Shown: positions 21,557 to 37,328 of the stretch, piece by piece
Numbering within the stretch: position 1 is the stretch's first letter
How the letters are laid out: each line of letters begins with the position of its first letter
Virus record (IMG/VR): IMGVR_UViG_3300043409_000956
Location: 29,093 to 93,092 of that record
Strand: one strand, 5' to 3'
Source of the DNA: a virus
DNA: 64,000 nucleotides
Position numbers and translations under genes: made by a program
The notes under the pieces: model-generated
The model's database searches: none
Seen by the model: only the letters and a program-made list of their open reading frames with translations
Told to the model about the DNA's origin: nothing

Positions 21557-22085
21557 AGAAGGGCATGAAGAAACGAAATTCTTCGTAGGCACAGAAGTAG
21601 AACATACTCCTGCGTTTGGTAAGACAACTTTGTTTGTTGTTGGCATCCAGGATGCGAAAGATATACAGTCAATAATTGACGAGCGATCCTGTTTGCTTGA
21701 CGAATCAAAACACATCAAGCATATCTATTTTGGTGCTAATCACAGTTTCCCCAACCTGGCAGTTAACGATGGTGCTGACTGGGCCAAGTGGGAAAAGATG
21801 ATTTACAACTTCCTGGACCGAGATTACTTATGCACATTGGATATTGATGTGGCCTGTGTCGAAGGATTACTAGAAGCCGGCTTTGTTGAATACCATAACT
21901 TTATCCCTATGATTTCAGTTAAATTGCCCTATGTATTACAACTGGGGTATAATGCTGTCGTTAAACTTGATGACAAAGACTTCAATGCCACAACACCCGG
22001 AGTTTGGTGCCATCAATTACACAACCTATTAGACCGTAAGGTATTCACTGAGTGGTCTAAATATACCAAAGACGAAACATTATGA
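21549..22085 (+). CDS. hypothetical protein between dpdA and dpdL-like gene
   Basis: Coupled ORF; GTEVEHTP, HIYFGANHSF, GVWCH. Confidence 0.75.
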   Translation: MIREGHEETKFFVGTEVEHTPAFGKTTLFVVGIQDAKDIQSIIDERSCLLDESKHIKHIYFGANHSFPNLAVNDGADWAKWEKMIYNFLDRDYLCTLDIDVACVEGLLEAGFVEYHNFIPMISVKLPYVLQLGYNAVVKLDDKDFNATTPGVWCHQLHNLLDRKVFTEWSKYTKDETL

Positions 22086-22522
22086 CACAAGAAGAACGCG
22101 AACAAGTTGAACGAATTAAACAACGTGCAGATCGTAAGATCTGGGTCACATTCCGTAAAGAAGGTATACATTGCTATCCTGCGGCGGCCACTGATCCTGC
22201 ACTGGCCACAGGCGATGAATATGATGTGAGTTTCTTGGGATCTCCACATCGTCACATATTCCACTTTAGAGTGTGGATTGATGTGTTGCACAACGATCGT
22301 GACATTGAGTTTATTCAATTCAAACGTTGGTTAGAAAATTTGTACAAAGACGGCATCTTGCAACTGGACTACAAGAGTTGTGAAATGATGTCAGATGATT
22401 TGTATTTGCAAATTGCCAATCGTTATCCCAACCGTGCTATCTGGATTGAAGTTTCTGAAGATGGTGAGAATGGCGCACTAATTAAGTATGAGACCTTTCG
22501 GCCACAACTTATTAGTGTGTGA
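22082..22522 (+). CDS. dpdL: QueD-paralog T-fold protein (DpdL-like)
   Basis: LGSPHRHIF matches the LxxxHRHxF signature I recall for DpdL; SCEM and IEVSEDGENG T-fold ends. Confidence 0.65.
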   Translation: MTQEEREQVERIKQRADRKIWVTFRKEGIHCYPAAATDPALATGDEYDVSFLGSPHRHIFHFRVWIDVLHNDRDIEFIQFKRWLENLYKDGILQLDYKSCEMMSDDLYLQIANRYPNRAIWIEVSEDGENGALIKYETFRPQLISV

Positions 22523-31754: not shown

Positions 31755-32489
31755 TTGAACGAAAATTGGATTGACACCATAGACGACAAGGGCTATGAAG
31801 AAGGTTACTTAGGCAACGCTATTCGCTTTCGAATGAAGCGTGACGGCAAAAGGTTTTGGGCCGGCGACAACATCAGTGACTATGTCAGCGAAGCAGATAA
31901 AGAACAACTAATCGACGATGCCGCAGAAGCATTTGAAGGTGTACTTGATGCACTACTAATTGATCGAGAAACTGATCCCAACAGTCAAGGTACAGCACGA
32001 CGACTGGCCAAAATGTACTTTAATGAAGTAATGGCTGGACGTTATGAACCAAGTCCCAATGCCACAGCCTTTCCTAACGATACCGACGGCAAATACGAAG
32101 GCATGTTGGTAGTACGCAGTGAGCTCAAATCAATGTGTAGTCATCATCACCAGCCGGTGTCGGGTGTGGCATACATTGGTATTATTGCAGGACCAAAACT
32201 AATCGGACTTAGCAAGTATACTCGTATTGCACAATGGTGTGCCCGTAGAGGTACCTTACAAGAAGAATTGTGTATGGATATTGCCCGCGAAATTGAATAT
32301 GCAACAGGATCGCCAGACGTGGGTGTTTACATACAGGCCACCCACGGTTGTTGTGAGAATCGTGGTATTATGGCTCACAGTAGTTTGACACAAACTACGG
32401 TATTGCATGGCGCCTTCCAAGCTGACCAAAGCACAAAGAAGGAATTCTTTGACAACATCAAACTACAACAAGACTTTGCACCCCGCTAA
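31755..32489 (+). CDS. folE: GTP cyclohydrolase I
   Basis: TARRLAKMY, SMCSHHH, GLSKY.RI, LQEEL, HGCCENRG. Confidence 0.95.
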   Translation: MNENWIDTIDDKGYEEGYLGNAIRFRMKRDGKRFWAGDNISDYVSEADKEQLIDDAAEAFEGVLDALLIDRETDPNSQGTARRLAKMYFNEVMAGRYEPSPNATAFPNDTDGKYEGMLVVRSELKSMCSHHHQPVSGVAYIGIIAGPKLIGLSKYTRIAQWCARRGTLQEELCMDIAREIEYATGSPDVGVYIQATHGCCENRGIMAHSSLTQTTVLHGAFQADQSTKKEFFDNIKLQQDFAPR

Positions 32490-33329: not shown

Positions 33330-33788
33330 ATGAAGTGGTTACTTGACTTTTTAGAAAAGCATGGTCGCAAACGCATAGTCATGGATCGTGTCAATAACGA
33401 GCCATACTTAGAACGCTACTATCTTTTCTTAAAGGATCGTAAGCGTTTTCCCTTTAATGTGTTTTTACACAAATTCTTAAAATCAGATCCAGATGATGTG
33501 CATGACCATCCTTGGCCCTATGCCACAGTTATTCTCAAAGGTGGGTATTGGGAATGGACCCCACAGTTTGACAGCTCGGGTAAAAAGATTAATGAAATTG
33601 CCAATTGGCGTGGTGCTGGACACTTTCGCGTTTGCAGTGCCAACAGTTATCACCGCATCGAACTTGATCCTACTGTAGAGTGTTGGACCTTGTTCATGCC
33701 TGGACCACAGACTCAAGATTGGGGATTTCTAACTCGCACGGGTTGGGTACAACATGAACAATATTTAGATGCTAGGGCTGGCAAATGA
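33330..33788 (+). CDS. cupin-fold hypothetical protein
   Basis: LHKFLKSD, HDHPW, GGYWE, HRIEL, WTLF..GP...WGF. Confidence 0.75.
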   Translation: MKWLLDFLEKHGRKRIVMDRVNNEPYLERYYLFLKDRKRFPFNVFLHKFLKSDPDDVHDHPWPYATVILKGGYWEWTPQFDSSGKKINEIANWRGAGHFRVCSANSYHRIELDPTVECWTLFMPGPQTQDWGFLTRTGWVQHEQYLDARAGK

Positions 33789-34105
33789 TGCAACTGCCGC
33801 CAGGTGTTACAGTCAACTACTTTATTGCCATTGAGATTGATCGATTAACTGAAGAAATGGTCGACTGGTTTGAGATGATAGGCGGCCAAGTTGGCAAAGA
33901 AATCAAATGGACCAGGCGCGGTAGTACTATCAATTTGCCCGTTGTGCAATATGGCCAAGGCAAGCCCAGTTACTACAGACAAGATGGATCAGGCAGTGTG
34001 CGTCTAAATTTCCACGGTGATGATGCCAGTGCGGCCAGTATGTTTATATTGAAATTCATGGAACATGTTCAACAACACAATTTGAAAGAGGTACACTTTG
34101 CATAA
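33785..34105 (+). CDS. hypothetical protein
   Basis: Coupled ORF. Confidence 0.7.
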   Translation: MMQLPPGVTVNYFIAIEIDRLTEEMVDWFEMIGGQVGKEIKWTRRGSTINLPVVQYGQGKPSYYRQDGSGSVRLNFHGDDASAASMFILKFMEHVQQHNLKEVHFA

Positions 34106-34610
34106 AGTATATTATACACCAGACGATGTTCGGTATTGGTTACACAACATCATCAGAGACATGACCGCACACAACTGGCGACCCGACTACATTGTGGGCA
34201 TTGGTCGAGGTGGATTGATTCCTGCTACCATGTTGAGTCATTATATGAATGTGCCCATGCAAACACTTGATGTTAGCCTGCGTGACAGCACAGTTGGACC
34301 AACCAGTAACTGCGGCATGGCCGAAGATGCATATGGTGGCGGCCGTGTGTTTCACCGTAAAAATATATTGGTTGTAGATGACATCAACGACTCAGGTGCC
34401 ACACTTGAATGGATCAAAAACGATTGGCCAGCTTCGTGTATGCCCAACGATACTGCGTGGCAAGACATTTGGCACAGCAATGTTCGCTTTGCTGTGATGG
34501 TCAATAATCAGACTAGTGCGTTCAAAGATGCTGACTATGTGGGTGCTCATATTAACAAACTAGAGCAAGATATTTGGTGTGTTTTTCCCTGGGAAGAATG
34601 GTGGAGATAA
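34098..34610 (+). CDS. purine phosphoribosyltransferase (Gpt/Hpt-like)
   Basis: GIGRGGLIPA, ILVVDDINDSGAT PRPP loop, WCVFPWE. Confidence 0.9.
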   Translation: MHKVYYTPDDVRYWLHNIIRDMTAHNWRPDYIVGIGRGGLIPATMLSHYMNVPMQTLDVSLRDSTVGPTSNCGMAEDAYGGGRVFHRKNILVVDDINDSGATLEWIKNDWPASCMPNDTAWQDIWHSNVRFAVMVNNQTSAFKDADYVGAHINKLEQDIWCVFPWEEWWR

Positions 34611-34613
34611 TAC

Positions 34614-35453
34614 ATGGCCGGACATAACGATTGGTACGATGTCAAGTTAGAAAAATTAAGTGACCACAATGAGTTTACTATAAACTTCAATGTGGATAAG
34701 CCAACACAACTAATGTCTTTTCAAGATGCAACTGATTATACTGCCAATTTAATATACCAGCAGAGTAAAAATATCTTTTTGGGACTAAGCGGCGGATTAG
34801 ATAGTGAATTTGTTGCCAATGTATTTGTTAGAAATAATATTCCATTTACTCCTATTATATTAACATTCAATAAAACCAAAGAACATTACTATGCATTAGA
34901 ATGGTGTGAAGTTAATAATATTATTCCAACCATAGTTGATGTGTCCGAAGACGATAAAGATTTTGTTAAGTATGCCAATTGGTTATCCAATTTTACTTCC
35001 ACCCAAGTTCATTCAATGTCTATGACTTGTTACATGTCAAGGATTGTAAAAAAACACGGAGGGAAACTAATACATGCAGATCCAACTTTGGTAAAAATTA
35101 CCAATGGATTTTATGATCCGGTGACTGACCAATTGGAAATCTCTTGGTACGAATTTCTATTAGAACTGGTCTATCCAGCAGAACATGTAGGTGGTTTCTT
35201 TTTCCATACGCCGGAGTTGGCACTTGCGTATGCAACAGAATTAGATACTTCGTTAAGCAACAATAGAGCAAAAACTAAGTTATATAAAAATGTTGCTTAT
35301 CGTCCTAAAAATTGGCCGCCGGTTGTTCCCATCAACGATATGTTAAAACGTAAAATTAAATTTCAGTATCACAAACCGTTGGTCACAGTCAATTGTGAAT
35401 GGACAAAAGAAAAATTCATTATGCTCTTGACAGACCTAAATAATAATGTATAA
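34614..35453 (+). CDS. PP-loop (SGGxDS) protein
   Basis: LGLSGGLDSE; no QueC Zn-cysteine cluster. Confidence 0.65.
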   Translation: MAGHNDWYDVKLEKLSDHNEFTINFNVDKPTQLMSFQDATDYTANLIYQQSKNIFLGLSGGLDSEFVANVFVRNNIPFTPIILTFNKTKEHYYALEWCEVNNIIPTIVDVSEDDKDFVKYANWLSNFTSTQVHSMSMTCYMSRIVKKHGGKLIHADPTLVKITNGFYDPVTDQLEISWYEFLLELVYPAEHVGGFFFHTPELALAYATELDTSLSNNRAKTKLYKNVAYRPKNWPPVVPINDMLKRKIKFQYHKPLVTVNCEWTKEKFIMLLTDLNNNV

Positions 35454-35459
35454 TAAATA
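35427..35459 (+). promoter_or_regulatory. sigma70 promoter plus TAAATA motifs upstream of queD
   Basis: TTGACA-16bp-TATAAT, CTAAATA in spacer, TAAATA at 35454. Confidence 0.65.
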
Positions 35460-35526
35460 CATAGCGGTCTTGGACATCATTCCCGCTTTACAAACTCTGC
35501 TGTCTATGCTAAAATTAACATAGGAG
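35460..35526 (+). ncRNA. preQ1-I-like riboswitch candidate
   Basis: P1 AGCGG/CCGCT, loop UC...C, UUACAAAC tail, SD-sequestering hairpin CTATG/CATAG; upstream of queD. Confidence 0.6.
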
Positions 35527-35533
35527 AAACAGC

Positions 35534-36040
35534 ATGACAACATCGAATCCCGTAGTTTACAAGTACACCAGTACCAAAGAGTATCACGACGCATTTCCGT
35601 GCGCCTACAGACAGTGGAGGAGCGATAGCCATTGTAATTTAATACACGGATATTCATTCAGTATGAAGTTCTATTTTGGAACCGACGAACTGGATGTGCG
35701 TAACTGGGCCGCCGATTATGGTGGACTCAAAGAACTCAAGAAGACCTTAGAAGATCAATTCGATCACACACTTATTGTGGCAGCGGATGATCCTGAAATG
35801 GCAACATTCAAACTGTTACAAGAGCGCAACATGGCCAAGGTTGTTGTGTTACCCCGACTGGGCTGTGAAGGACTCAGTGACATGCTGTACAAGTATGTGA
35901 ATGGTGTTTACATTCCCGAAATGTGGGGTCCAGGTGAAGCCGCACGTTTATGGTGCTATCGTGTGGAAGTACGTGAGACACAAGCCAACATGGCTTTCCG
36001 TGAAGGTCACCGTGAATGGAATGAAGACCTATTTGCATAA
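35534..36040 (+). CDS. queD: 6-carboxy-5,6,7,8-tetrahydropterin synthase
   Basis: HCNLIHGYS, DYGGLK..K..L...FDH, GCE, VEVRET. Confidence 0.9.
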   Translation: MTTSNPVVYKYTSTKEYHDAFPCAYRQWRSDSHCNLIHGYSFSMKFYFGTDELDVRNWAADYGGLKELKKTLEDQFDHTLIVAADDPEMATFKLLQERNMAKVVVLPRLGCEGLSDMLYKYVNGVYIPEMWGPGEAARLWCYRVEVRETQANMAFREGHREWNEDLFA

Positions 36041-36194
36041 ATTTTGGCGCCTTTGGGCTAAAGCATTAGGTGAAAAAGCAGGCAGTTCGGACGCAGAAGC
36101 GGACCGTATTGCTTGCATTCGTACTGTGATTGTGTTAACATACGTTGTAACCAATTGCTTTATCATTGCAGGGGTTATTAGACATTGGAACTAA
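36021..36194 (+). CDS. small membrane protein
   Basis: WRLWAKALGEK...AD.IA.IRT..+TM+IIAGVIRHW; ATG 36021. Confidence 0.7.
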   Translation: MKTYLHKFWRLWAKALGEKAGSSDAEADRIACIRTVIVLTYVVTNCFIIAGVIRHWN

Positions 36195-36196
36195 AC

Positions 36197-36484
36197 ATGA
36201 ACTCAAAAGAAAATGAAATTCTGCTAATTACCCAAGAGGAATGTGCAGAAGTAACGCAAGCCATTAGCAAATGCTATCGCTTTGGACTTGACAATTTCAA
36301 GCCCGGAAAACCCAAAACAAATAGAGATCACTTAGCAGAAGAACTAGGCGATCTGCAGGCCATGATTGATTTATGTATTCAGTTTAATCTTGTAACAGGT
36401 GAGCAAATACAAGATGCCGCAGACAACAAAATTGCCAAACTACATCAATGGTCAAGTATTTTTAAAGAAGAAGTAAATGAGTAA
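36197..36484 (+). CDS. MazG-like NTP pyrophosphohydrolase
   Basis: QEECAEV.QAISK...EELGDL. Confidence 0.8.
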   Translation: MNSKENEILLITQEECAEVTQAISKCYRFGLDNFKPGKPKTNRDHLAEELGDLQAMIDLCIQFNLVTGEQIQDAADNKIAKLHQWSSIFKEEVNE

Positions 36485-37328
36485 ACTCAAAGTAGCAGAA
36501 TTATTTTATTCAATACAAGGCGAAGGACGCTACATGGGTGTGCCCAGTGTGTTCTTGCGTGTGTTTGGATGTAACTTTAAATGTGCCGGATTTGGCATGC
36601 CTCAAGGAGAACTCAGCAATGAAGCTATCAATATTGACCCTACTGACTACACCGACTACAAATCCCTTCCTCTTGTGTCTACAGGTTGTGACAGTTACGC
36701 TAGTTGGGATCCTCGCTTTAAGCATCTATCTCCCGTTATTGATACTGATGCGATTGCCCTTGCTATTGTGGATACGCTACCGCACAAGGAATGGCGCGAC
36801 GAACATTTAGTTATTACTGGAGGTGAGCCACTACTAGGTTGGCAACGAGCTTATCCTGATTTATTAGATCATCCCAAGATGGCAGGACTAAAAGAGATTA
36901 CATTTGAGACAAACGGCACTCAACCCTTTGATCCAAAGTTTAGACAGTATCTGTTGAACTGGAGTTTGGGTAATAAGGAGCGTGGACGCAATGCATTAAC
37001 ATTCAGTGTAAGTGCCAAACTTCCTTGTAGTGGCGAGCGGTGGGAAGAAGCAATATGCCCAGAAGTAGTGTGTTCATACGAAGAAGTTGGTTATACTTAC
37101 TTGAAACTGGTGGTGGCAACAGAACAGGATATAACAGATGCAGAACGAGCAGTTGAAGAATATCGTACAGCAGGGTTTATGGGTCCTGTGTATGTCATGC
37201 CTGTTGGTGGTGTTGAGCGGGTGTATACCCTTAACAATCGTGCAGTAGCAGAAATGGCAATGCGAAAAGGTTGGCGGTACAGTGATAGACTACAAGTGCC
37301 ACTCTTTAAAAACGAATGGGGAACCTGA
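36477..37328 (+). CDS. queE: 7-carboxy-7-deazaguanine synthase (radical SAM)
   Basis: ELFYSIQGEG, FLR..GCNFKC...GCDS, ITGGEP, FETNGT, RLQV. Confidence 0.9.
   Translation: MSKLKVAELFYSIQGEGRYMGVPSVFLRVFGCNFKCAGFGMPQGELSNEAINIDPTDYTDYKSLPLVSTGCDSYASWDPRFKHLSPVIDTDAIALAIVDTLPHKEWRDEHLVITGGEPLLGWQRAYPDLLDHPKMAGLKEITFETNGTQPFDPKFRQYLLNWSLGNKERGRNALTFSVSAKLPCSGERWEEAICPEVVCSYEEVGYTYLKLVVATEQDITDAERAVEEYRTAGFMGPVYVMPVGGVERVYTLNNRAVAEMAMRKGWRYSDRLQVPLFKNEWGT

What the first reader, a model, noticed from the sequence alone, without database searches (positions are those of the whole stretch)
35460..35536. Phage preQ1-I-like riboswitch with a full expression platform, possibly sensing a different ligand
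The aptamer-like part is AGCGG-UCUUGGACAUCAUUC-CCGCU-UUACAAAC, matching preQ1-I features (5-bp P1 ending GG, loop starting U and ending C, A-rich tail). Loop GACA can pair with UGUC(35501). CTATG(35504) pairs either with CATAG(35519), hiding the AGGAG SD, or with the 5' CATAG(35460), which breaks P1: two mutually exclusive states. With no QueC/QueF visible, the ligand may be CDG or 7-deazaguanine. That would be a variant riboswitch controlling DNA rather than tRNA modification.
Basis: partly seen in the sequence, partly recalled or inferred. Interest (0 to 1): 0.8.

Follow-up and report, generated by a model that had tools for sequence, protein, structure and literature searches.

The report
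Phage queD-leader pseudoknot riboswitch candidate
The 73-base leader of this uncultured lake jumbo phage's queD gene folds into a small RNA pseudoknot that hundreds of phage contigs keep through compensating base changes; no catalogued RNA family matches it, and it is wired like a new, phage-only relative of the preQ1-I riboswitch that switches translation on.

Summary
The described sequence is there. P1 (AGCGG/CCGCU), the loop-to-downstream pairing (UGGACA:UGUCUA) and the CUAUG/CAUAG hairpin are real. The proposed pairing with the 5' CATAG is not conserved (3 of 127 contexts) and lies partly before the predicted transcript start.

The leader is one member of a large RNA family found only on phage-like contigs, once per genome, always directly before a QueD-like gene (30-98% identity). 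P1 and both parts of P2 covary. New here: UCA pairs with the UG of the invariant UCUGC. In a scan that left the partner base free, all 71 UCCGC variants had UCG.

No Rfam family matches, including preQ1-I/II/III, even at E<=10. The fold resembles preQ1-I: G-C-closed 5-bp P1, an invariant C before the P1 3' strand, an A-rich L3. It fails other defining features: L1 U not conserved, L3 extended by an invariant UC, and reversed logic.

In four platform designs, the P2 3' strand also pairs with the SD or start codon. Knot formation should therefore free the ribosome site: a predicted ON switch.

The ligand is unknown. The phages are QueC-less and carry FolE, QueD, QueE and DpdL.

This scan has found the same motif before on other DNA (238 notes), with the same reading.

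The parts
35427..35454 (+). Upstream sigma70 promoter: TTGACA (35427-32), 16-nt spacer, TATAAT (35449-54). The predicted start is near A35461, 2 nt before P1.
   Evidence: 12 of 12 consensus match. In 23 of 27 relatives with a near-consensus promoter, the -10 hexamer ends 6-9 nt before P1.
35454..35459 (+). TAAATA motif, a candidate phage (late-type) promoter core that overlaps the -10 hexamer.
   Evidence: TAAATA lies within 60 nt upstream of P1 in 69 of 128 distinct contexts, mostly ending 5-9 nt before P1. The likeness to the T4 late promoter TATAAATA is from my own knowledge.
35463..35467 (+). P1 5' strand, AGCGG.
   Evidence: Pairs with 35483-87. Pair types are AU/UA, GC/CG/UA and CG/AU/UA, with an invariant closing G-C.
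35468..35470 (+). L1, UCU. The first base varies in the family (U, C or A); the C and U are invariant.
35471..35476 (+). P2a 5' strand, UGGACA, inside the P1 loop.
   Evidence: Pairs with 35501-06 (6 bp, one G.U). Covariation is shown.
35477..35479 (+). U35477 stands opposite C35500 as a conserved U.C mismatch. C35478-A35479 is the P2b 5' strand.
   Evidence: CA pairs with U35498-G35499. UCA/UCUGC changes to UCG/UCCGC with no mixed forms: 71 of 71 in a scan that left the base free, plus 4 in the unbiased set.
35480..35482 (+). L2, UUC. C35482 is invariant and directly precedes the P1 3' strand, so it is the candidate ligand-pairing (specificity) base.
   Evidence: The column is invariant in the unbiased alignment. 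L2 is UC, AC, CC or UUC. The role is inferred by analogy with C17 of preQ1-I (PMC11625349).
35483..35487 (+). P1 3' strand, CCGCU.
35488..35497 (+). L3: the A-rich UUACAAAC, with A invariant at positions 3, 5 and 7, followed by an invariant UC.
   Evidence: Invariant columns; tabulated.
35498..35506 (+). P2 3' strand: UG (P2b), C35500 (mismatch), UGUCUA (P2a).
35496..35508 (+). Sequestor strand. In the knot-free fold it pairs with CAUAG 35519-23 and with ACAGCA 35529-34 plus GA 35536-37, which covers part of the SD and the A of the AUG.
   Evidence: Minimum-free-energy fold of -16.9 kcal/mol. It shares 35498-35506 with P2, so the two folds exclude each other.
35504..35523 (+). P3 hairpin, CUAUG / CAUAG, the inner part of the sequestering fold. 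It is typical of 'type a' leaders.
35487..35515 (+). Embedded sigma70-like promoter at DNA level: TTTACA, 17 nt, TAAAAT with TG. Its transcript would lack the aptamer.
   Evidence: 10 of 12 match with TG. 52 of 57 type-a leaders have such a promoter, against 6 of 71 others. L039 has a perfect TTGACA-17-TATAAT.
35522..35536 (+). Shine-Dalgarno AGGAG (35522-26) and the ATG start (35534-36).
35534..36040 (+). queD-like T-fold gene (168 aa; motif CNLIHGY), the controlled gene.
   Evidence: Pfam PTPS 3.9e-15; PHROG 2389 QueD-like 7.5e-35. All 12 cultured-phage QueDs checked also have CxxxHGY.
36185..37328 (+). Downstream operon genes: MazG-like (36185-36484) and QueE-like radical SAM (36477-37328).
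31755..32489 (+). folE (GTP cyclohydrolase I). It belongs to the same pathway but is not preceded by the motif.
   Evidence: The model hits the record once only.
22082..22522 (+). DpdL-like T-fold protein with LGSPHRHIF (the signature LxxxHRHxF).
   Evidence: 57% identical to a protein of Acidovorax phage ACP17. The signature and ACP17 DpdL are described in PMC10516641.
19830..21371 (+). Candidate DpdA/TGT-like transglycosylase (513 aa). This is a lead only.
   Evidence: Silent in Pfam, PHROGs, NCBIfam and PDB. ESM Atlas feature hits reach viral TGT-like clusters (0.93) and DpdA (0.89). Kept next to the DpdL-like gene in complete relatives.

Best explanation
The leader (about 35461-35533) is a cis-acting RNA switch on the queD mRNA. 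Its 5' 46 nt form an H-type pseudoknot aptamer. P1 (5 bp) is closed by an invariant G-C. A loop strand pairs with a downstream strand as P2a (6 bp here), a U.C mismatch and P2b (CA:UG). L2 is 2-3 nt and ends in an invariant C. L3 is A-rich and ends in an invariant UC. The P2 3' strand can instead pair with the ribosome-binding region. Without the knot, the SD/start region is held in a hairpin and translation of queD is low. A small ligand, probably with a guanine-like face read by C35482 and stacked between G35467-C35483 and A35479-U35498, stabilises the knot. That withdraws the sequestor strand and frees the SD/AUG, so translation switches ON. Shown: the structure, its conservation and covariation, the exclusive link to queD, the position at the very 5' end of the mRNA, and the mutually exclusive pairings. 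Inferred: that a small molecule rather than a protein or nothing stabilises the knot, the pocket model, and the ligand. Candidates are a 7-deazaguanine-pathway compound or precursor (H2NTP, CPH4, CDG, 7-deazaguanine), guanine released by DNA transglycosylation, or host preQ0/preQ1.
For: Family and covariation: QueD-guided retrieval gave the motif in 75 of 81 loci. The covariance model scores 44-67 bits and hits one true copy per locus. P1 plus P2b are 99.2% and 98.5% paired, with covariation scores of 0.21 and 0.25 against 0.04 in shuffles, 0 of 500 shuffles as high. For P2b, all 71 UCCGC variants carry UCG although the scan left that base free. For P2a, 35 distinct strands are more stable with their cognate partner than swapped in 87% of comparisons.

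Gene link: scans by DNA pattern alone, blind to QueD, put 79 of 80 and 70 of 71 motifs directly before a QueD-like gene of 30-98% identity. There is one copy per genome in four (near-)complete 350-384 kb phage genomes.

5'-end position: near-consensus promoters end 6-9 nt before P1.

Switch wiring, in four different platform designs, has the P2 3' strand complementary to the RBS:
- Type a (this window): the strand pairs with the SD flank and the start region.
- Types b and c: UGCCAU pairs with AUGGCA, and the loop strand AUGGCAU copies the start region.
- G-C class: ACACUCC pairs with GGAGU, and the loop GGUGU mimics the SD.

Across 125 and 68 distinct leaders, blocking the aptamer raises RBS accessibility in 87% and 90%. 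The strand pairs with the RBS region more than shuffled versions do: 0.575 against 0.388, and 0.46 against 0.33.

preQ1-I-like pocket elements are listed against PMC11625349.

Leader RNA or DNA is present in freshwater metatranscriptome contigs. One 167-nt contig is identical over 35479-35645.
Against: No ligand is shown, and nothing here distinguishes a small molecule from a protein effector. An ON switch on a biosynthetic gene is unusual: all known preQ1 riboswitches are OFF switches (PMC11625349). The predicted accessibility changes are moderate (0.46 to 0.59) and come from a model without pseudoknot energies. For this window the sequestered fold (about -17 kcal/mol in total) looks more stable than P2, so a ligand would need to act kinetically. 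Type-a leaders, this one included, carry an internal promoter that would bypass the switch. The sequences are related, so shuffle statistics overstate independence; the A-U to G-C change in P2b may represent only two to four events. Parts of the enlarged sets were retrieved with patterns that fix the invariant bases, so only the QueD-guided set (57 distinct) is unbiased for conservation. The metatranscriptome contigs cannot show a start site and may include DNA.
Confidence: 0.58

Rival explanations
1. The pseudoknot is a protein-dependent translational operator. A phage protein, for example a pathway enzyme or a dedicated activator, binds or stabilises the knot and so times queD translation. 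Two precedents, recalled from my own knowledge: the 5' pseudoknot of the T4 gene 32 mRNA, and Mu Com, which activates translation of the DNA-modification gene mom.
For: The same structural data support it. The motif is restricted to one phage group and to one gene per genome, as expected for a phage-specific factor. ON logic suits a timing activator. No cultured-phage or bacterial example exists that would show use independent of the phage's own proteins.
Against: Invariant bases sit at the P1/P2 junction in the same places as the preQ1-I ligand pocket: the G-C floor, the C before the P1 3' strand, and the A-rich L3. The aptamer is very small (46 nt). It is kept across QueD proteins as low as 30% identical, which would require an equally conserved protein partner.
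Confidence: 0.2
2. The element is a ligand-independent structured leader. The knot and the sequestering hairpin set a fixed or temperature- or folding-rate-dependent translation level, or protect the 5' end of the mRNA. Regulation would then come from the choice between the upstream promoter (leader present) and the embedded promoter (leader absent).
For: 52 of 57 type-a leaders have an internal sigma70-like promoter that would give a leaderless-like mRNA. The knot sits at the extreme 5' end. The predicted effect on accessibility is modest.
Against: Types b and c and the G-C class lack the internal promoter yet keep the aptamer and the strand exchange. About 13 invariant unpaired or junction bases are not needed for a mere stability element.
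Confidence: 0.13
3. It is an ordinary preQ1-I riboswitch: a preQ1-sensing OFF switch that Rfam's short model simply misses.
For: The topology, the 5-bp P1 closed by G-C, UC or AC before the P1 3' strand, the A-rich L3 and the queuosine-pathway gene all resemble preQ1-I.
Against: No preQ1 family is reported even at E<=10 on 221-nt and 111-nt queries. The L1 U6 equivalent is not conserved. L3 is 10 nt with an invariant UC. P2 is 7-10 layers long and lies 20-35 nt upstream of the SD, acting as an anti-SD or anti-start strand rather than containing the SD. The phages lack QueC and so make no preQ0 or preQ1.
Confidence: 0.04
4. The conservation is at DNA level only (overlapping promoters) and the RNA pairings are incidental.
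For: L3 plus the P3 loop read as -35 and -10 elements in type-a leaders.
Against: Compensatory changes in P1, P2a and P2b have no meaning for a promoter. Leaders without the promoter keep the motif.
Confidence: 0.02

Closest known systems
preQ1-I riboswitch (Rfam RF00522; types I-III, e.g. B. subtilis queC, T. tengcongensis, C. antarcticum, E. coli; reviewed in PMC11625349)
   Same: Both are small H-type pseudoknots at the start of an mRNA for a 7-deazaguanine pathway gene. Both have a 5-bp P1 closed by a conserved G-C, an invariant C immediately 5' of the P1 3' strand preceded by U or A, an A-rich L3 suited to the P1 minor groove, and a C in the 3' tail just before P2 (as in type I).
   Different: It is not detected by the Rfam model. 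The first L1 base is not a conserved U; C and U at L1 positions 2-3 are invariant instead. L2 is only 2-3 nt. L3 is 10 nt and ends in an invariant UC. P2 is long and interrupted by a conserved U.C mismatch. The P2 3' strand is an anti-SD or anti-start element rather than part of the SD, so the predicted logic is ON, not OFF. It is found only on phage-like contigs, in QueC-less phages.
Pseudoknot ON riboswitches (guanidine-III, fluoride, ZTP)
   Same: Ligand-stabilised pseudoknot formation removes a strand from a repressing structure and turns expression on (own knowledge).
   Different: There is no sequence or Rfam similarity. Those classes control detoxification or salvage genes, not a biosynthetic gene for DNA modification.
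Phage translational control of modification and replication genes by 5' RNA structure (T4 gene 32 pseudoknot; Mu Com-mom)
   Same: A 5' leader structure in a phage mRNA governs translation. In Mu the target is also a DNA-modification gene and the effector activates translation by remodelling a hairpin (own knowledge).
   Different: Those effectors are proteins. Here the junction bases resemble a small-molecule pocket, and no partner protein is known.
QueC-less 7-deazaguanine DNA modification system of Cellulophaga phage phiST (FolE, QueD, QueE, DpdL, DpdA3; PMC10516641)
   Same: The gene set is the same here: FolE, QueD (CxxxHGY), QueE-like, DpdL-like (LxxxHRHxF) and a candidate DpdA-like gene, with no QueC.
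   Different: phiST and 11 other cultured phages have no leader and no motif before queD. The DNA base of the present phages is unknown.

Membership tests
preQ1-I riboswitch (RF00522) | Scores with the Rfam covariance model at or above the gathering score. | tested here: not met
   No Rfam hit in the window at gathering. No preQ1-I, -II or -III hit at E<=10 in 35380-35600 or in the relative L018's leader.
preQ1-I riboswitch (RF00522) | H-type pseudoknot with a short P1 closed by a conserved G-C pair, which forms the pocket floor. | tested here: met
   P1 is 5 bp. The closing G-C is invariant in 57 and 75 distinct sequences, and the other pairs covary.
preQ1-I riboswitch (RF00522) | Specificity cytosine directly 5' of the P1 3' strand, preceded by U (type I) or A (types II and III). 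| tested here: met
   C35482 is in an invariant column. The preceding base is U in 78, C in 17 and A in 8 of 109 A-U-class leaders, and A in 38 of 68 G-C-class leaders. The feature is defined in PMC11625349.
preQ1-I riboswitch (RF00522) | Conserved U as the first L1 nucleotide (U6), which reads N9-H of preQ1. | tested here: not met
   The first L1 base is U 18, C 23, A 16 in the unbiased set. The next two bases, C and U, are invariant instead.
preQ1-I riboswitch (RF00522) | A-rich L3 that runs straight into the P2 3' strand, with the last A (A30) reading the ligand. | tested here: inconclusive
   L3 is A-rich with A invariant at positions 3, 5 and 7, but two further invariant bases (UC) separate it from P2. 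The contacts cannot be tested without a structure.
preQ1-I riboswitch (RF00522) | The P2 3' strand contains SD bases (or feeds a terminator), so ligand binding switches expression OFF. | tested here: not met
   P2 ends 16 nt before the SD here. Its 3' strand is complementary to the SD/start region, so knot formation frees the RBS.
preQ1-I riboswitch (RF00522) | Binds preQ1 (or preQ0) selectively. | not testable with these tools
   Needs in-line probing, ITC or SPR.
Riboswitch (general) | Conserved structured 5' UTR element with covariation and invariant unpaired bases, linked to genes of one pathway. | tested here: met
Riboswitch (general) | Expression platform with mutually exclusive pairings that share a strand with the aptamer. 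| tested here: met
   Four platform designs all reuse the P2 3' strand.
Riboswitch (general) | Direct binding of a small molecule with a change in gene expression. | not testable with these tools

The most novel reading that the evidence does not exclude
This is a new riboswitch class carried only by phages: a preQ1-I-like pseudoknot rewired as a translational ON switch. It would sense a guanine-faced metabolite of the QueC-less 7-deazaguanine pathway (or guanine released by DNA transglycosylation). The phage would thereby couple synthesis of its DNA-modifying base to metabolite supply. That would be RNA-based small-molecule control of DNA hypermodification.
Probability: 0.45. Interest if true: 0.85.

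Novelty: new variant of a known kind. Interest (0 to 1): 0.75.

Why it matters
Riboswitches that belong to phages themselves, rather than being copied from hosts, are very rare, and none is known to govern a DNA-modification pathway. This motif is abundant: hundreds of contigs from lake and other aquatic viromes, once per roughly 350-kb genome. It is tiny (about 46 nt) and comes with at least four natural expression platforms. That makes it a ready test bed for how one aptamer fold is rewired from OFF to ON. Finding its ligand would show which metabolite limits 7-deazaguanine DNA synthesis in QueC-less phages. It could also yield a compact ON switch for synthetic biology. If it turns out to be protein-dependent, it would be a new phage translational activator system.

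Tried and rejected
- Rfam at gathering and at E<=10 gave only chance-level hits (Plastid-rpoB, SCARNA3, freshwater-2 over the SD only) and no preQ1 family.
- blastn of the locus and of the aptamer against 50,697 cultured-phage records found nothing relevant.
- Twelve cultured-phage queD loci (Dinoroseobacter R5C, Acidovorax ACP17, Xanthomonas X1, Microcystis Me-ZS1, Pseudomonas Iggy and PA5oct, Stenotrophomonas Mendera, Cellulophaga phiSM and phiST, Flavobacterium immuto, Chryseobacterium MA9V-3, Synechococcus BUCT-ZZ01) have no motif; best 8.5 bits with filters off. Most have no intergenic leader at all.
- The pattern scan of bacterial and archaeal genomes gave mostly chance matches. The few real ones (L130, L099, L108, L125) lie on phage-like MAG contigs before QueD-like genes.
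- Pairing of CAGCA at the start codon with UGCUG holds for this window but not across type-a leaders.
- A second, weaker model hit (L026:1881-1929, 28 bits) is a degenerate copy without SD or P2.
- Pfam TGT, PHROGs, NCBIfam and PDB sequence searches do not recognise the 513-aa DpdA candidate.
- Metatranscriptome contigs (X1, X2) cover only parts of the stretch. They cannot give a start site, strand or level, and uncovered parts mean nothing.
- Literature searches found no description of this motif and no 'preQ1-IV'.

Full report
**What is in the sequence.**
- A perfect sigma70 promoter lies just upstream: TTGACA 35427-32, a 16-nt spacer, TATAAT 35449-54 (12 of 12).
- This puts the transcript start near A35461 and gives a 73-nt leader before the ATG at 35534.
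- The gene is a 168-aa QueD-like T-fold protein (Pfam PTPS 3.9e-15; PHROG QueD-like 7.5e-35).
- A MazG-like gene and a QueE-like radical SAM gene follow it.
- The window is part of a 93-kb IMG/VR virus record rated 26% complete, so the phage is probably a jumbo phage of about 350 kb.

**Known RNA families.** Rfam 15 has no match in the window at gathering thresholds.
- A permissive scan of 35380-35600 at E<=10 returned only chance-level hits and no preQ1-I, -II or -III family.
- The same was true for a relative's leader that looks most like the B. subtilis aptamer.

**The element is a large, conserved family.**
- The QueD protein found at least 594 viral-contig loci, of which the best 80 were kept. 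75 of 81 loci, counting the window, carry the same leader, giving 55 distinct leaders by the pattern parse.
- A covariance model built from them (R1) finds one full-length copy per locus at 44-67 bits. It finds a single hit in the 64-kb window, at 35460-35508 (53.9 bits).
- Two further scans used DNA patterns only and were blind to the gene. In those, 79 of 80 and 70 of 71 motif instances lie directly before a QueD-like gene whose identity to the window's protein runs from 30% to 98%.
- In four complete or nearly complete phage genomes of 353-384 kb the model hits exactly once.
- In bacterial and archaeal genome collections, the only convincing hits were on short or phage-like MAG contigs, again before QueD-like genes.
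- None of 12 cultured phages with a related QueD has the motif, and most have no leader at all.

**Structure.**
- P1 (35463-67 with 35483-87) is 98-99% paired in two independently retrieved sets. It has AU/UA, GC/CG/UA and CG/AU/UA exchanges and an invariant closing G-C. The covariation scores are 0.21 and 0.25 against 0.04 for shuffles.
- The loop strand 35471-76 (UGGACA) pairs with 35501-06 (UGUCUA). Across the family this helix (P2a) has all four Watson-Crick combinations at its first pair. It has 35 distinct 3' strands, and cognate strands are more stable than swapped ones in 87% of 595 comparisons (-4.0 against -2.15 kcal/mol).
- A further point, which none of the earlier scan notes I retrieved mentions: P2 continues past a conserved U.C mismatch (U35477, C35500) into two more pairs, C35478-G35499 and A35479-U35498. 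These use the UG of the invariant UCUGC.
- In the unbiased set, four leaders change UCA to UCG and all four also change UCUGC to UCCGC. I then scanned the viral collection for UCCGC variants while leaving the partner base free. All 71 distinct hits with a valid P1 had UCG and none had UCA.
- The aptamer therefore reads: P1, L1 (N-C-U plus spacer), P2a, U, P2b, L2 (N(N)-C), P1', L3 (W-U-A-N-A-N-A-Y-U-C), P2b', C, P2a'.
- The invariant bases cluster at the P1/P2b junction. Some invariance in the enlarged sets was imposed by my search patterns, so only the QueD-guided set is unbiased.

**Expression platform.** It is not supported: the 5' flank is variable (CATAG in 3 of 127 contexts), and the predicted start lies inside it.
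- What is conserved is a three-strand exchange centred on the P2 3' strand.
- In this window the knot-free minimum-energy fold pairs 35496-35508 with CAUAG 35519-23 and with ACAGCA.GA 35529-37. That covers part of the SD and the A of the AUG.
- In leader types b and c, the strand UGCCAU(C) or UGUCAU pairs with the start region (G)AUGGCA, and the loop strand (AUGGCAU) is a copy of that start region.
- In the UCCGC class, the strand ACACUCC is an anti-SD for GGAGU, and the loop strand GGUGU mimics the SD.
- Over 125 and 68 distinct leaders, blocking the aptamer raises predicted RBS accessibility in 87% and 90% (0.46 to 0.59, and 0.52 to 0.67).
- The P2 3' strand pairs with the RBS region more than shuffled versions of itself do: 0.575 against 0.388, and 0.46 against 0.33.
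- In every known pseudoknot riboswitch the ligand stabilises the knot (own knowledge; PMC11625349 for the preQ1 family). The wiring therefore predicts an ON switch.
- The size of the effect in these simple calculations is moderate, and pseudoknot energies are not modelled.

**Comparison with preQ1-I.** The defining features come from PMC11625349.
- Met: the H-type fold, the conserved G-C pocket floor, the invariant cytosine before the P1 3' strand (preceded by U, A or C), the A-rich L3, and the pathway link.
- Not met: the Rfam model, the conserved L1 uridine, an L3 that runs straight into P2, and an SD-containing P2 with OFF logic.
- It works like a preQ1-I aptamer in architecture but is not a member. 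I file it as an undescribed variant or class.
- By analogy only, I propose a pocket: a guanine-faced ligand pairs with C35482 and stacks between G35467-C35483 and A35479-U35498, with U35496/C35497 and C35469/U35470 reading its other edge.
- The natural A-U to G-C exchange of the ceiling pair suggests that this pair only stacks on the ligand.

**Pathway context and ligand.**
- The record has folE (31755-32489), queD and queE.
- It also has a DpdL-like T-fold protein with LGSPHRHIF (22082-22522). That signature, and DpdL of phages phiST and ACP17, are described in PMC10516641. The window's protein is 57% identical to an ACP17 protein.
- A 513-aa protein is TGT/DpdA-like only by an ESM Atlas lead.
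- No true QueC was found in the record, in 29 other motif-bearing records, or in the complete genomes. DpdL-like genes are in all four complete genomes.
- These phages therefore probably make CDG and 7-deazaguanine, not preQ0 or preQ1.
- An ON switch would fit a substrate or feed-forward signal (H2NTP, CPH4, GTP/guanine) or guanine released by DNA transglycosylation at least as well as an end product. I cannot decide between them.

**Transcription.**
- Near-consensus sigma70 promoters end 6-9 nt before P1 in 23 of 27 relatives that have one, so the aptamer starts the mRNA.
- Many other relatives have TAAATA 5-9 nt before P1.
- 52 of 57 type-a leaders, including this one (TTTACA-17-TAAAAT), also contain an embedded sigma70-like promoter made of L3 and the P3 loop. 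It would produce an aptamer-less mRNA.
- A freshwater metatranscriptome holds a 167-nt contig identical to 35479-35645. It crosses that internal start and so is compatible with the long leader, but contigs cannot prove transcription or ends.

**Rivals and verdict.** A protein-dependent operator or activator, or a ligand-free structural leader, remain possible. A canonical preQ1-I OFF switch and a purely DNA-level element are contradicted. Earlier notes of this scan reached the same reading on other genomes, and I checked the main claims independently here. The structure is real. It is not in Rfam, and I found no paper that describes it. It is most likely a new phage-specific ON riboswitch whose ligand remains to be found.

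Noticed in passing
window 35487-35515, and type-a relatives (for example L039:2945-2975): An embedded sigma70-like promoter is built from riboswitch parts: L3 serves as the -35 and the P3 loop as an extended -10. It is present in 52 of 57 type-a leaders and is a perfect TTGACA-17-TGcTATAAT in L039. It would give a short, unregulated queD mRNA and suggests two-promoter timing.
   Followed up: partly
window 35454-35459 and upstream of P1 in relatives: A TAAATA motif ends 5-9 nt before P1 in about half of all leaders. It resembles the T4 late promoter core and may be this phage group's own promoter.
   Followed up: partly
L026:1881-1929 (the same stretch as L212:5-53): A second, degenerate copy of the motif (28 bits) lies about 1 kb upstream of the real one, before an unrelated small gene. 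It has UUCGC instead of UCUGC, a broken P2 and no SD. It may be a decaying duplicate.
   Followed up: partly
window 35534-36040 and loci L321-L332: The phage QueD clade, including QueD of phiST, phiSM, Iggy and immuto, has CxxxHGY where the canonical QueD signature is CxxxHGH (PMC10516641). One presumed zinc-binding histidine is therefore replaced by tyrosine.
   Followed up: partly
window 34098-34610: A purine phosphoribosyltransferase-like gene (Pfam Pribosyltran; weak XPRT/HGPRT NCBIfam hits) lies two genes upstream of queD. Synechococcus phage BUCT-ZZ01 also has a xanthine-guanine PRTase near its queD. It could salvage guanine released by DNA transglycosylation or activate a deazapurine base.
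   Followed up: no
window 36041-36194: The 144-nt gap between queD and the MazG-like gene holds a short frame ending in a hydrophobic stretch (a possible small membrane protein). A relative's metatranscriptome contig shows an ATG-started version at the same place.
   Followed up: no
window 34614-35453 and 33330-33788: A 279-aa ORF directly upstream of the promoter matches no Pfam or PHROG family. A cupin protein of the PHROG 'cysteine dioxygenase' family lies nearby in the same co-directional block.
   Followed up: no
L043:2511-3000: In one relative the motif precedes a first, canonical-looking small T-fold gene (protein starting MAKITATRYHDF), and the usual QueD-like gene follows. That gives two tandem T-fold genes under one leader.
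   Followed up: no
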